This document shows, in pieces, positions 53,701 to 56,700 of a stretch of 64,000 nucleotides of DNA. The stretch lies in the NCBI RefSeq assembly GCF_963506605.1, contig NC_083281.1, positions 78,306,001-78,370,000 of the forward strand. The letters are read 5' to 3'. This stretch comes from Zootoca vivipara (Eukaryota). How positions within the stretch are numbered: the stretch's first letter is position 1; every line of letters begins with the position of its first letter. The position numbers are program-made.

Positions 53701-56700
53701 ATCAATGGCCTCATTAGACAGTAAAATTCATGTTAAATTGCCGTTTTAGGGGGTATTTTTCGTCGTCTGGAATGGATTAATCCACTTTCCATTACTTTCA
53801 ATGGGAAAATTCACTTCAGGTTAAGTACGCTTCAGTTTAAGTACAGACTTCATGAACCAATTGTGGTTGTAAACCGAGGTACCACTGTCTAAAATAAAAC
53901 TGCTAGGACATGTGCAAAGCTAAGCAGGATCTGGTATGGTTTCACACTGGATGGGAAACTGTGTTGTTGAGATACCCACATTGCAGTGGCTTGGATTAGA
54001 TGACCCTCGGGACCCCTTCTGACTCAGCAATTCTACGATTCTAAGTGTATGGTGAAGGCAGCAGGCACTGTCCACTGAACTCAACAAGTCTTACTTCAGA
54101 GGAGACATTGTGCTGTCAGTGCTGTGCTTGTTTGCTTGGTTACTCCATTCATTTGTGTTCTTGATCACTTAATTTTAGCTGCTCTTATTTCAACTGTAAA
54201 TCACCTCGAAACTCTTACCAGGGGAAAAAGGTGAAGTATAAATAAATATATAACAACAGCAACAATTTGTACCATCATTCAGTAGGTAAAATTACATTTG
54301 TTGTGCTACTTGGGTTCATTTTAGTTTCCCACTACCAAACCAAACCAAACCAAACCAAACCATTACTTGATATGCTGGCAGCAACACTGAGCATAAGCAC
54401 ATAATGAGAGCCTGCTGGATCAGGCCAATGGCCCATCTAGTCCAGTAACATGTTCCTATGCAGTGGCCAACCAGAAGCCTGTGGGAAACCCACAAGGAGG
54501 ATCCCAATCCTCTCCCCTGCTGTGGCTTCCAGAAACTGGCATTCAGAAACATTGCTGCCTCCAACTGCAGAGGCCGAGCAAAGTCATCATGGCTAGTTGT
54601 CATCGACAGCCCTCTCCTCCATGGATATGACTTGCCCTCTTTTAAAGTCATCTAAGTTGGTGTCCAGCCTCACAGCCTCCTATGGGAGTGGGTTCTGTAG
54701 TTCAACTACGTGCTGCGTGAAAAAGTTGTGGGATGGAACACTGGGGCAGACAAGTCACAACAATTCCTAGAGTGTCCACTAACAGGAACTCACCTGGAGG
54801 GACACCTGACTAAGTTCCTCCAGATATGCAGATGAGATGGATTAGCTGGGACAAAAGCCCCTAGCCCAGGGGTGTCAAACTCAAATTCATCAGGGGCCGC
54901 ATCAGCAGTTTGGTCACCCTCAAAGGGCCGGTTGTGTCTGTAGGACTATGTGTCCACTCTTTATTATCATAAATTATTGTCACTGCATTCAATTATTACT
55001 GTTTTTTGTAATAATGTAAGCTCATTCCCGCCCCCACGCGGATCACATTCCTGCGTCGTGGCGCGTGTGTGGGAGGGGATGTAAACGAGGGAAATTTGAA
55101 CAAAAGGTGGGGATTGACGGCTTGGGGGGGGCCTCAACTAAACCTTTGGCAGGAAGGAGAAAGCCACTGCTGGGATTAAAAACCTGCAGATGGAAAGAGG
55201 GCTTCCCTCTCCCGCCCTGCGCACACCCAAACCCCGCTAGGCAGGATGCCACACGCTGTAACCCACCCCATGCTTTGGAGAGGGGCAGGAACATGCGGTG
55301 CAGCGCCAACTCCCTGCTTTGCTTTTGCATCCTCCCTCCTCAGCGCCAGAGTCCCTTCCCCTCGCGCTGAGGGAGGGCAGCGGATTTCCCGAGGAGGAAG
55401 GCGGCGGCAGCCCCAGCGGACGTGCATCTTCGCCTCAGAGCTGCTCTTTCCCCCACCCGCGCTGTTGTCGTCTTCGCCGCCGCCTCTCCCTACCGGGACT
55501 GCAGGCAGAGGAGGCTTGAAAACCTCCCCCCCCCCAAAAATCCCCTCCCACCTACTCAAACCGCGAGGCGACTCCATCTGGAGCCCTACATCACGAGGGG
55601 CTGAGAGGAGGCGGCGGCAGAGCGGGAAGAGCAGGAACCCGTGCCGTCGCCGCCTCCTCCCTCCCGGCCGCCCCCCGGGGAGCAGCTCCGCCGGAACTGA
55701 GAAGCCAAAGGGCGGCTTGGGGGTGGGGGGCAGAGCAAAAGCCAGGCACCCTCCCGAGTGTCTATGAGGAGAAAACGGGGGAAGAGGGAAGAGAAACCCG
55801 GCTCCATCAAGAGAGCGGCTGTTGCGCTTCACCTACTTCCCCCTCAGGCTCACTCCGCGTCCCTTTCGACCGCTCGTTCGCCCACCTCCCGGATGCAGCC
55901 GAGGAGAGGAAGGGAAGCGGCGGGCGGCGGCTCCCCAGTGCCGCCTCACTCACTCTCGGAGACAACAGCAAAGCCCGCCCAAAAAAAATCCAGCGCTGCT
56001 CCGTCCCGGCACCAACTTTGCCGGCAGCGCCTGTAGGGCTTTCCTACCTCCTCGGCGGGCTTCCTCCTCCTGCTGCATCTCACTTCCCCATCTGGCCGCT
56101 GTGCCACCGCCTCCCTCAGCCTCATTCGAAATTGAAATTCCCTAGCCAAGGCCGTCAGCGCGGCTCCAGCGCCCTGGCCTCCGCCTGCAGCCCCGCCCCC
56201 GGTCTTGACCCTCGGCCAATCGCAGGCTCCAGAACTACTGTCAGCGGTTATTGTCGGCGGCGGCTACGCGGGCCACATGACGAGGTCTGGCGGGCCGGAT
56301 TAGGCCCCCGGGCCTTGTGTTTGACACCCGTGCCCTAGCCAGCAGCCATTCTCTCTCTTAGCCTTCTCTCCTTCGATGGGAACACATCTCCAGAGAATCT
56401 CCAGTTAGGATGGTTCTCCCTCTTGGCCTGCAGCCAAGAGAGAGACCAGATGGAGCCTTACTCTACTAAGAAGACTCCAGATGTACATAGTTGTAACTTT
56501 TCTACATAAGCCTGCCTTTCTGAGATTATGCTGTTAACTCAGGATGAAACTGTAAGTAAACTCTATCTTATTTTATGAAAACTGTGTTGTGTATTTCTTT
56601 TAAGAGGGACAAAAGGGGACTTTGCTAGGAAGTATAATATTGTACAGGTTTTAGCAAACCTGAATGCACATGCTTTGCTGCGCACAAAAGGGGAATGTCA

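What the first reader, a model, noticed from the sequence alone, without database searches (positions are those of the whole stretch)
54867..56332. Pack-TE-like hAT element carrying promoter/CpG-island cargo, creating a new CpG island about 16 kb upstream of PRDM16
Seen: intact TIRs and a perfect 8-bp TSD enclose about 1.3 kb (55020-56260) of non-repetitive, very GC/CpG-rich sequence with no transposase similarity. It looks like a patchwork of gene 5' ends: GGCGGCGGC runs, a GC box CCCCGCCCC (about 56190), CCAAT (about 56216) and a donor-like AGGTAGG on the minus strand (about 56043-56049). Established: plant Pack-MULEs and animal Pack-TIRs capture host fragments, often GC-rich 5' regions. Inference: a lacertid hAT family may capture and disperse promoter fragments, acting as a mobile CpG island beside a developmental regulator. 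The retained CpGs suggest it is young or unmethylated.
Basis: partly seen in the sequence, partly recalled or inferred. Interest (0 to 1): 0.75.

Follow-up and report, generated by a model that had tools for sequence, protein, structure and literature searches.

The report
Transposon-borne CpG island upstream of PRDM16
A 1.5-kb cut-and-paste (hAT-type) transposon without its own transposase dropped a ready-made CpG island into CpG-poor DNA about 16 kb upstream of a PRDM16-like gene, but whether that island was stolen from host gene promoters could not be tested here.

Summary
Window 54867-56332 is bounded by a perfect 8-bp target-site duplication (CCCTAGCC) and 18-nt terminal inverted repeats matching at 16 of 18. 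A window-wide scan found 5 such TSD+TIR configurations, against a mean of 0.02 in 100 simulations. The 1,241-bp core (55020-56260) has 64.5% GC and CpG o/e 0.71 with no TpG/CpA excess. The 1-kb flanks have CpG o/e 0.15 and 0.12. The island therefore arrived with the element. It is the largest of 5 stringent CpG islands in the window and lies 15.75 kb upstream of a PRDM16-like first coding exon.

The core is non-coding. It has no Pfam domain, no codon periodicity, open frames no longer than chance, no Rfam family and no internal repeats.

"Non-autonomous hAT carrying a CpG island" is shown. "Captured host promoter fragments" is untested, because no eukaryotic genome collection was available. 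No parental copy lies within the 64-kb window. The cited CCAAT box and the cited 9-nt GC box are at chance level. A second, unrelated TSD-flanked element in the window (12777-13226) is also a CpG island, so CpG-richness alone does not indicate capture.

Most likely this is a copy of a non-autonomous hAT family with a family-specific GC-rich centre.

The parts
54859..54866 (.). Left copy of the 8-bp target-site duplication, CCCTAGCC
   Evidence: Identical to 56333-56340. The central TA fits the Buster-type hAT target consensus nnnTAnnn (passages of PMC3517528).
54867..54884 (+). Left terminal inverted repeat, CAGGGGTGTCAAACTCAA
   Evidence: Complementary to the right end at 16 of 18 positions.
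54867..55019 (+). Left arm: TIR plus AT-rich subterminal region (GC 0.40, CpG o/e 0.33)
   Evidence: The inner boundary is set by composition only, because no family consensus is available.
55020..56260 (.). Non-coding GC/CpG-rich core, CpG-island-like (1,241 bp, GC 0.645, CpG o/e 0.71, TpG 0.99, CpA 0.92)
   Evidence: No Pfam match reaching a cut-off, no Rfam family at gathering score, no codon periodicity, and open-frame length within chance.
55605..55659 (.). GC-rich hairpin at the GC/CpG maximum of the core (22-nt arms, 82% complementary)
   Evidence: I2. Folded as 55590-55680: z = -1.89, with 5 of 200 shuffles folding as well. The miRNA-family matches here score 24-25 bits against gathering scores of 60-105, so I treat it as chance.
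56043..56049 (-). Donor-like AGGTAGG. It is one of 4 AGGTRRG sites in the core; the others are at 55881-55887 (-), 55547-55553 (-) and 55105-55111 (+).
   Evidence: 4 observed against a shuffle mean of 0.61, reached by 5 of 500 shuffles.
56191..56220 (.). GC box CCCCGCCCC (56191-56199) and CCAAT (56216-56220) near the right edge of the core
   Evidence: The CCAAT box and the 9-nt GC box are each not above chance.
56261..56332 (+). Right arm (GC 0.69), ending in the right TIR at 56315-56332
56333..56340 (.). Right copy of the target-site duplication, CCCTAGCC
39073..39113 (-). Context only: PRDM16-like first coding exon (ATG at 39113, MRSKARARKLPKS, GT donor at 39072-39071)
   Evidence: It lies inside a stringent CpG island at 38442-39418. 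The gene name is recalled, not confirmed in a database.

Best explanation
This is one copy of a non-autonomous hAT-superfamily DNA transposon. Its target site is of the Buster/Charlie type.

Shown: it was inserted as a single 1,466-bp unit, which duplicated the 8-bp target CCCTAGCC. Its centre is a 1.24-kb non-coding sequence that meets CpG-island criteria. The insertion therefore delivered a ready-made CpG island into heavily CpG-depleted DNA. The site is about 2-3 kb beyond the edge of the CpG-rich domain around a PRDM16-like first exon.

Inferred:
- The cut-and-paste move was made by a hAT transposase supplied in trans.
- The centre is the family-specific central region of a multi-copy non-autonomous family. 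Such regions are common in lizard hAT families. Ultimately it is probably filler DNA acquired once by gap repair or template switching. I do not think it is a fresh patchwork of several promoters.
- The core shows no CpG decay because the copy is young, or because its CpG density keeps it unmethylated in the germ line, or both.
- Any effect on the PRDM16-like gene is hypothetical. It could act as an orphan promoter, an enhancer, or a seed for an unmethylated or Polycomb-bound domain.
For: - TSD and TIR are far above chance: 5 hits in the window against a simulated mean of 0.02. The 8-bp TSD, short CAG-type TIR and length under 4 kb match the hAT definition quoted in PMC3517528 (passages).
- The central CTAG of the TSD matches the target consensus listed for most Anolis hAT families, NTCTAGAN or NYYTARRN (table in PMC3014272).
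- The CpG-rich block is coextensive with the element. There are 101 CpGs inside, against 9 and 8 in about 1.07 kb on either side. Flank CpG o/e is 0.15 and 0.12, with TpG/CpA at 1.24-1.53. The core has 0.71, with TpG 0.99 and CpA 0.92.
- No transposase or other domain is present.
- The core is non-coding. GC1, GC2 and GC3 are roughly equal in 13 open frames. The longest open frame, 271 aa, is reached in 90 of 500 simulations.
- In Anolis, 57 of 67 DNA-transposon families are non-autonomous. They have family-specific centres that incorporate extraneous DNA. They include a 1,485-bp hAT family with a similar CAGGGGT...AAAC terminus (PMC3014272: abstract, table and section 8 part 2).
- A second TSD-flanked element in the window is also a CpG island. 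This shows that CpG-rich TIR elements recur here.
Against: - No other copy of the arms or the core exists in the 64-kb window, so family membership and copy number are inferred, not seen.
- GGCGGCGGC runs (0 of 500 shuffles reach the count), donor-like sites (5 of 500) and GGGCGG (16 of 500) are enriched. The absence of TpG/CpA excess also suits DNA that came from an unmethylated host CpG island. All of this would fit host 5'-end cargo equally well.
- The inner boundaries of the arms are set by composition only.
Confidence: 0.6

Rival explanations
1. One reading: a Pack-TIR. The core was captured from one or several host gene 5' regions (promoter, 5'UTR, first exon-intron junction). Parental loci without TIRs still exist elsewhere in the genome. 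The element may have transposed with this cargo.
For: - The core has CpG-island composition with no decay signature.
- (GGC)n runs, GGGCGG and donor-like sites are above shuffle expectation.
- GC skew changes sign at about 55600 and about 55800, as a bidirectional or composite promoter might show.
- Animal hAT elements are the commonest Pack-TIR carriers, 208 of 370. One frog hAT captured a 291-bp 5'UTR and amplified to three copies (PMC8277862, passages).
- Lizard hobo-type hAT elements incorporate genomic DNA (PMC3014272).
Against: - No parental locus was seen. None lies in the window, whereas 56.9% of Pack-TIRs lie under 15 kb from their parent (PMC8277862 section 8).
- The CCAAT box and the 9-nt GC box are at chance.
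- There is no coding exon signal. A 272-aa open frame found no protein relatives.
- There are no segment boundaries with internal duplications.
- Pack-TIRs are rare: 0-38 per genome among up to 148,066 TIR elements (Supplementary Data 2 of PMC8277862).
- An unrelated CpG-rich TIR element lies in the same window.
Confidence: 0.27
2. In-situ gap filling. An older short hAT MITE sat at this site. A later double-strand break inside it was repaired by copying a nearby CpG island, without transposition. This is the mechanism Tan et al. propose for most single-copy Pack-TIRs.
For: The end product would look the same: TSD, both ends and foreign filler. It is the majority mechanism for single-copy animal Pack-TIRs (PMC8277862 abstract and section 8).
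Against: - No similar sequence lies in the 54.8 kb to the left or the 7.7 kb to the right.
- The two N runs, 169 and 137 nt, are too short to hide a 1.24-kb parent.
- The other stringent CpG islands in the window show no similarity to the core.
Confidence: 0.04
3. Nested insertion. The core is another mobile element, such as a solo LTR, the 5' end of a retroposon or a retrocopy, that inserted into a short hAT MITE.
For: Nesting is common in repeat-rich DNA. The arms add up to a MITE-like 225 bp.
Against: By reading, there is no second TSD at the inner junctions, no TG...CA termini with matching flanks, and no terminal poly(A). There are no reverse-transcriptase, gag or other domains. There is no tRNA or other RNA gene.
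Confidence: 0.05
4. Not an element. A native CpG island happens to be flanked by inverted and direct repeats, or lies between two independent hAT fragments.
For: None beyond the 2 mismatches in the TIR.
Against: The joint TSD+TIR configuration is expected 0.02 times per window. A perfect 8-bp duplication exactly abuts both termini. CpG density changes exactly at the element's limits.
Confidence: 0.02

Closest known systems
Non-autonomous hAT families of lizards (hAT-HT2N1_AC, hobo-N families and others of Anolis carolinensis; Novick et al., PMC3014272)
   Same: 8-bp TSD with a central (C)TAG. A 14-16-nt TIR starting CAGGGGT and ending AAAC. Length of 1.3-3.4 kb; one listed family is 1,485 bp. 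No transposase. A central region that is family-specific and may include incorporated genomic DNA.
   Different: The TIR is similar to but not the same as any listed there (CAGGGGTGTCAAAC here, CAGGGGTCCCCAAAC there). A CpG-island-like centre is not described in the passages I read; a search of that paper for 'GC-rich' found 0 occurrences. I saw no sequences of those families, so no alignment was possible.
Animal Pack-TIRs (Tan et al. 2021, PMC8277862), for example Pack-hAT-N8_XT, which carries a 5'UTR fragment of CAPSL
   Same: Two ends of one TIR element enclose 100-5,000 bp of non-TE-looking DNA. hAT is the commonest carrier. One documented case carries 5'UTR sequence and has transposed.
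   Different: The defining parental copy was not demonstrated here. At 1.24 kb the core is larger than the 291-bp frog example. The two squamate genomes in that survey had almost no annotated TIR elements and 0 Pack-TIRs: anole 77 elements with 0 hAT, garter snake 3 elements.
Plant Pack-MULEs
   Same: TIR elements that carry host gene fragments. As I recall, they prefer GC-rich 5' ends of genes.
   Different: They belong to a different superfamily (Mutator, with 9-11-bp TSDs by recall). Their cargo is usually about 300 bp. No MULE features are present here.
The 450-bp TIR element at window 12777-13226
   Same: 8-bp TSD, a short TIR starting CA, no coding capacity, and CpG-island composition (GC 0.593, o/e 1.19) set in CpG-poorer flanks.
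   Different: The TIR is unrelated (CATAGCTGCCAAGT). The interior is built of long inverted and 95-bp direct repeats, whereas the core studied here is non-repetitive.

Membership tests
hAT superfamily (DNA transposon) | 8-bp target-site duplication | tested here: met
   CCCTAGCC on both sides, 8 of 8. Definition quoted from PMC3517528.
hAT superfamily (DNA transposon) | Short terminal inverted repeats (5-27 bp) and overall length under 4 kb | tested here: met
   18-nt TIR matching at 16 of 18. The element is 1,466 bp.
hAT superfamily (DNA transposon) | hAT transposase (BED finger, RNase-H-like core, hAT dimerisation domain) encoded in the element or in an autonomous partner with the same ends | tested here: not met
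   Inside the element, no Pfam match reached a curated cut-off in 20 open frames. There is no Pfam match in 18 further long open frames across the window. The copy is therefore non-autonomous. A partner elsewhere in the genome is not testable with these tools.
hAT, Buster-type subgroup | Target consensus nnnTAnnn (against the Ac type) | tested here: met
   CCC-TA-GCC. One site only, so this is weak evidence. Consensus taken from passages of PMC3517528.
Pack-TIR (criteria of Tan et al. 2021, Methods) | Internal sequence of 100-5,000 bp flanked by two ends of the same TIR element, each covering at least 10 bp of the consensus termini | tested here: inconclusive
   The structure fits: a 1,241-bp core between matching ends. 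No family consensus was available to compare the ends with.
Pack-TIR (criteria of Tan et al. 2021, Methods) | A unique parental copy elsewhere in the genome (at least 90% identity, 80-120% of the length) that is not flanked by TIR elements | not testable with these tools
   No eukaryotic genome collection was on hand. Within the 64-kb window, no match longer than 21 nt.
Pack-TIR (criteria of Tan et al. 2021, Methods) | Not a retrocopy and not a segmental duplication | tested here: inconclusive
   No poly(A) at the inner junctions, by reading. The parental locus is unknown.
CpG island (sequence definition; thresholds recalled: 200 bp/GC 0.50/o/e 0.60, and 500 bp/GC 0.55/o/e 0.65) | Length, GC content and observed/expected CpG | tested here: met
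   The core is 1,241 bp with GC 0.645 and o/e 0.71. Under the stringent scan it is the longest of 5 islands.
CpG island (functional definition) | Unmethylated in germ line and soma; bound by CXXC proteins; H3K4me3 | not testable with these tools
   Indirect only: no TpG/CpA excess in the core (0.99 and 0.92) against 1.24-1.53 in the flanks. Youth of the insertion would give the same result.
RNA polymerase II promoter | Transcription start site; enrichment of core and proximal promoter motifs | tested here: inconclusive
   Against 500 shuffles: CCAAT 1 against 1.74; 9-nt GC box reached by 72 of 500; GGGCGG 7 against 3.0 (16 of 500); no TATA, ETS, NRF1 or YY1 motif. Transcription start data are not available.

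The most novel reading that the evidence does not exclude
A squamate hAT family works as a mobile CpG island. Multiple TSD-flanked copies carry a host-promoter-derived core that resists germ-line methylation wherever it lands. Each copy seeds a new unmethylated island that could act as an orphan promoter or a Polycomb or enhancer platform. This copy would extend the regulatory CpG-rich domain of a PRDM16-like developmental gene. Together with the second CpG-rich TIR element in the window, 2 of the 5 stringent CpG islands in these 64 kb would be transposon-delivered. That would imply that DNA transposons are a substantial source of new CpG islands in this lineage.
Probability: 0.1. Interest if true: 0.7.

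Novelty: new member of a known kind. Interest (0 to 1): 0.35.

Why it matters
The origin of new CpG islands, especially orphan ones near developmental genes, is an open question. Most known transposon-borne islands come from retroelements. Here the boundaries of a CpG island coincide to the base with a cut-and-paste transposon. That gives a clean natural experiment: is a CpG-dense sequence that lands in methylated DNA kept unmethylated, and does it acquire promoter or enhancer marks next to PRDM16?

If the core proves to be host promoter DNA, it would also be, as far as the survey I read goes, the first Pack-TIR described in a squamate. That survey had almost no TIR annotation for its two squamates.

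If the core is just the family's own centre, the finding is an ordinary non-autonomous hAT copy with an unusual composition.

Tried and rejected
- Second copy or parental copy in the window. BLASTN with word size 9 found only matches of 21 nt or less to the core.
- Paralogous empty site. The left flank holds an older repeat at about 54396-54566 with 4 diverged copies elsewhere in the window, but it does not span the insertion point. The right flank is unique.
- Protein relatives of the 272-aa open frame 55520-56335 (+). None at E of 0.001 or less among the 8000 scored candidates, which were limited to 149-476 aa. The window's own frame did not appear either. That collection evidently does not hold open frames from non-coding DNA of this genome, so the blank says nothing about copy number.
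- Pfam. One sub-threshold match (DUF1117, E 0.065, 14.2 bits against a cut-off of 25), treated as chance.
- Rfam. Only sub-threshold miRNA-like matches at the GC hairpin, and a tRNA-like match outside the element. ARAGORN found none. The hairpin fold has z -1.89. Rejected as an RNA gene.
- Internal modular or palindromic structure. Only short low-complexity matches with no common centre. TRF found nothing relevant.
- Bacterial-type promoter and terminator scan. Not applicable to a vertebrate sequence and disregarded.
- Literature. The 14-nt terminus occurs in 0 papers of the library. A search on 'CpG island' + hAT + lizard + 'DNA transposon' listed 11 of 13 papers, none on this topic judging by titles and abstract starts. 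A search on lacertid, hAT, MITE and transposable elements (at least 3 of the 4 terms required) listed 15 papers, none of which contained 'lacertid'.
- The third copy of the TSD 8-mer, inside the element at 56140-56147. The word occurs 4 times in the window on both strands, and the adjacent bases are unlike the termini. Treated as chance.
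Full report
**What is there.** Window 54867-56332 reads as a discrete insertion.
- The 8-mer CCCTAGCC at 54859-54866 is repeated exactly at 56333-56340.
- Directly inside these copies lie inverted termini. The left end is CAGGGGTGTCAAACTCAA. The reverse complement of the right end is CACGGGTGTCAAACACAA.
- They match at 16 of 18 positions. Local alignment of 160 nt from each end extends no further.

**Is it more than chance?** I scanned the window for any 8-bp direct repeat abutting 14-nt inverted termini with at most 2 mismatches, 60-6000 bp apart.
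- The scan found 5 hits. In 100 first-order Markov simulations the mean was 0.02 and the maximum was 1.
- Four of the five are real small elements: this one, 12777-13226, and two 136-bp MITEs at 13944-14079 and 17477-17612.
- The fifth, 14008-16470, is an artefact of the palindromic centres of MITE copies.
- All begin with CA, as hAT termini do. The central TA of the TSD fits the Buster-type hAT target nnnTAnnn (passages of PMC3517528).
- Its CTAG core fits the NTCTAGAN or NYYTARRN consensus listed for most Anolis hAT families (table in PMC3014272).

**Composition.**

| Region | GC | CpG o/e | TpG o/e | CpA o/e |
|---|---|---|---|---|
| Left arm 54867-55019 | 0.40 | 0.33 | 1.12 | 1.97 |
| Core 55020-56260 (1,241 bp, 91 CpGs) | 0.645 | 0.71 | 0.99 | 0.92 |
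| Right arm 56261-56332 | 0.69 | 0.94 | 1.25 | 1.06 |
| Left flank, 1 kb | 0.457 | 0.15 | 1.53 | 1.32 |
| Right flank, 1 kb | 0.476 | 0.12 | 1.35 | 1.24 |

- The flanks carry the signature of long-term germ-line methylation. The core does not.
- CpG counts change at the element's limits. There are 9 CpGs in 53800-54866 and 8 in 56333-57400, against 101 inside the element.
- I ran a stringent island scan (500-bp windows, GC at least 0.55, o/e at least 0.65; thresholds recalled). It finds 5 islands in the window, and this is the longest.
- One of the others covers the PRDM16-like exon. Another coincides with the TIR element at 12777-13226.
- "The insertion created a new CpG island" is therefore well supported at the sequence level.

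**Context.**
- A first coding exon reading MRSKARARKLPKS starts at 39113 on the minus strand and is followed by a GT donor at 39072-39071.
- The element's nearer end is 15,754 bp upstream of that ATG.
- I located the exon with a six-residue motif recalled for PRDM16. It is too short for a database search, so the gene name is a recalled identification.
- The exon sits in a roughly 19-kb domain (33-52 kb) with CpG o/e 0.69 and no TpG/CpA excess. The element lies 2-3 kb beyond where that domain fades.
- Two N runs (19796-19964 and 38305-38441) were left alone.
- "Lacertid" could not be verified with the tools. The window does not look human.

**What the core is not.**
- It encodes nothing recognisable. 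No Pfam match reached a curated cut-off in 20 open frames of 50 aa or more; the only listed match, DUF1117 at E 0.065, is far below its cut-off. A twenty-first frame lies outside the element and was left out.
- There is no hAT transposase remnant. No Pfam domain was found in 18 further long frames across the window, so no autonomous partner is nearby.
- The long open frames are a by-product of GC-richness. GC1, GC2 and GC3 are roughly equal in 13 frames. The longest frame in the element, 271 aa, is reached in 90 of 500 composition-matched simulations.
- A search of the 272-aa frame against the large protein collection returned nothing. The window's own frame did not appear either, so that blank says nothing about copy number.
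- No Rfam family reaches its gathering score, and no tRNA is present.
- A GC hairpin at 55605-55659 folds only marginally better than shuffles, with z -1.89.
- The core has no tandem repeats and no internal duplications beyond short low-complexity matches. "Non-repetitive" holds within the window.
- There is no second TSD, LTR-type terminus or poly(A) at the inner junctions, by reading. That argues against a nested retroelement.

**Promoter-likeness.** Their weight differs when tested against 500 dinucleotide shuffles of the core.

| Motif | Observed | Shuffle mean | Shuffles reaching observed |
|---|---|---|---|
| CCAAT | 1 | 1.74 | 419 of 500 |
| 9-nt GC box | 1 | 0.16 | 72 of 500 |
| GGGCGG | 7 | 3.0 | 16 of 500 |
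| Donor-like AGGTRRG | 4 | 0.61 | 5 of 500 |
| GGCGGCGGC | 4 | 0.1 | 0 of 500 |

- Three of the four donor-like sites are on the minus strand.
- TATA, ETS, NRF1, YY1 and E-box patterns are absent. All motif names and consensus patterns are recalled.
- GC skew is negative over 55200-55600 and 55800-56300 and positive over 55600-55800. A minus-strand start near the right edge plus a divergent unit near 55600-55650 would fit this, but so would chance.
- The core is compatible with host 5'-end DNA but not diagnostic of it. Nothing supports "patchwork" specifically.

**The capture question.** Tan et al. (PMC8277862; I read the abstract, sections 8 and 14, passages and Supplementary Data 2) define a Pack-TIR by a unique parental copy of at least 90% identity that is not flanked by TIR elements. 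That test needs the host genome.
- The only genome collection offered holds bacteria and archaea. The test therefore could not be run.
- What can be said: no parental copy lies in the window, which covers 54.8 kb to the left and 7.7 kb to the right.
- In that survey 56.9% of Pack-TIRs lie under 15 kb from their parent, and most single-copy cases arise by in-situ gap filling. This weakens the commonest Pack-TIR route. It leaves a distal parent possible.
- Pack-TIRs are rare: 0-38 per genome among up to 148,066 TIR elements. The two squamates surveyed were effectively unannotated. The anole had 77 elements with 0 hAT and 0 Pack-TIRs. The garter snake had 3 elements and 0 Pack-TIRs.
- By contrast, Novick et al. 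(PMC3014272; abstract, table, section 8 part 2 and passages) report that 57 of 67 Anolis DNA-transposon families are non-autonomous. [quoted passage not shown]
- Those centres are often built from incorporated genomic DNA. One family of 1,485 bp has a related CAGGGGT...AAAC terminus.
- On these base rates, a TSD-flanked 1.47-kb transposase-less hAT in a lizard is most likely a copy of such a family.

**A second CpG-rich element.** The 450-bp element at 12777-13226 weakens "CpG-rich, therefore captured promoter".
- It has a perfect 14-nt TIR and the TSD GTCCCATT. Its GC is 0.593 and its CpG o/e is 1.19, against 0.30-0.31 in its flanks.
- It is built of inverted and 95-bp direct repeats.
- The same fact strengthens the broader idea that TIR elements deliver CpG islands in this genome.

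**How it most likely works.**
- Shown: one insertion event moved the whole 1,466-bp unit, and the CpG island is coextensive with it.
- Inferred: mobilisation in trans by a hAT transposase.
- Inferred: the core is a family-specific centre, originally filler DNA from gap repair.
- Inferred: CpGs are preserved because the copy is young, or because CpG-dense DNA tends to stay unmethylated wherever it is placed. That principle is recalled from the mammalian literature and was not read here.
- The perfect TSD does not separate these two explanations for the preserved CpGs.
- Any regulatory effect on the PRDM16-like gene is speculation.

**Verdict.** It is a new member of a known kind: a non-autonomous hAT with a foreign or family-specific centre, possibly a Pack-TIR. 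Interest is moderate. The interesting core is the clean, base-exact case of a DNA-transposon-borne CpG island next to a developmental gene. It becomes notable only if the genome search and methylation data turn out as in the novel reading.

Noticed in passing
window 12777-13226 (TSD GTCCCATT at 12769-12776 and 13227-13234): A second TSD-flanked TIR element, 450 bp long, with a perfect 14-nt TIR (CATAGCTGCCAAGT). Its GC is 0.593 and CpG o/e 1.19, with flanks at 0.30-0.31. It is built of a 79-nt inverted repeat (92% complementary) and 95-bp direct repeats. These contain AAAATGGCGGC and CCGGAAGT words, which I recall as YY1-like and ETS-like motifs. It accounts for one of the 5 stringent CpG islands in the window.
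   Followed up: partly
window 13944-14079 and 17477-17612; possibly also about 16400-16470: Two copies of a 136-bp palindromic MITE with 8-bp TSDs (GCCTAAAT and GTGTAGAC), both with a central TA. A partial third copy seems to end near 16470. It was seen but not aligned. The centres of these MITEs produced a false 2.46-kb 'element' in the TSD/TIR scan.
   Followed up: partly
window 33001-52000: A roughly 19-kb domain of moderate GC (0.47) but high CpG o/e (0.69), with no TpG/CpA excess. It surrounds the PRDM16-like first exon and looks like a large germ-line-unmethylated domain. The rest of the window has o/e 0.27-0.30. An N run at 38305-38441 abuts the promoter island. It was left as it is.
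   Followed up: no
window 57765-57821 (+): A tRNA-like match just below Rfam's gathering score (26.9 against 29 bits, E 0.018). ARAGORN did not call it. It may be the head of a tRNA-derived SINE.
   Followed up: no
window 56140-56147: A third copy of the TSD word CCCTAGCC lies inside the element, 193 bp before the right TSD. The word occurs 4 times in the window on both strands, including once at 47172. The neighbouring bases are unlike the termini, so this is probably chance.
   Followed up: yes
window about 54396-54566: An older dispersed repeat in the left flank. It has 4 diverged copies (74-79% identity) at about 25206-25354, 9339-9413, 30328-30398 and 62270-62330. It does not span the insertion site.
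   Followed up: no
window 54898-54940 and 56271-56300: Both arms carry similar words in direct, not inverted, orientation: GGGCCRCAT and GGGCCGG followed by T or A. I saw this by eye. They may be subterminal transposase-binding repeats. I did not test this statistically.
   Followed up: no
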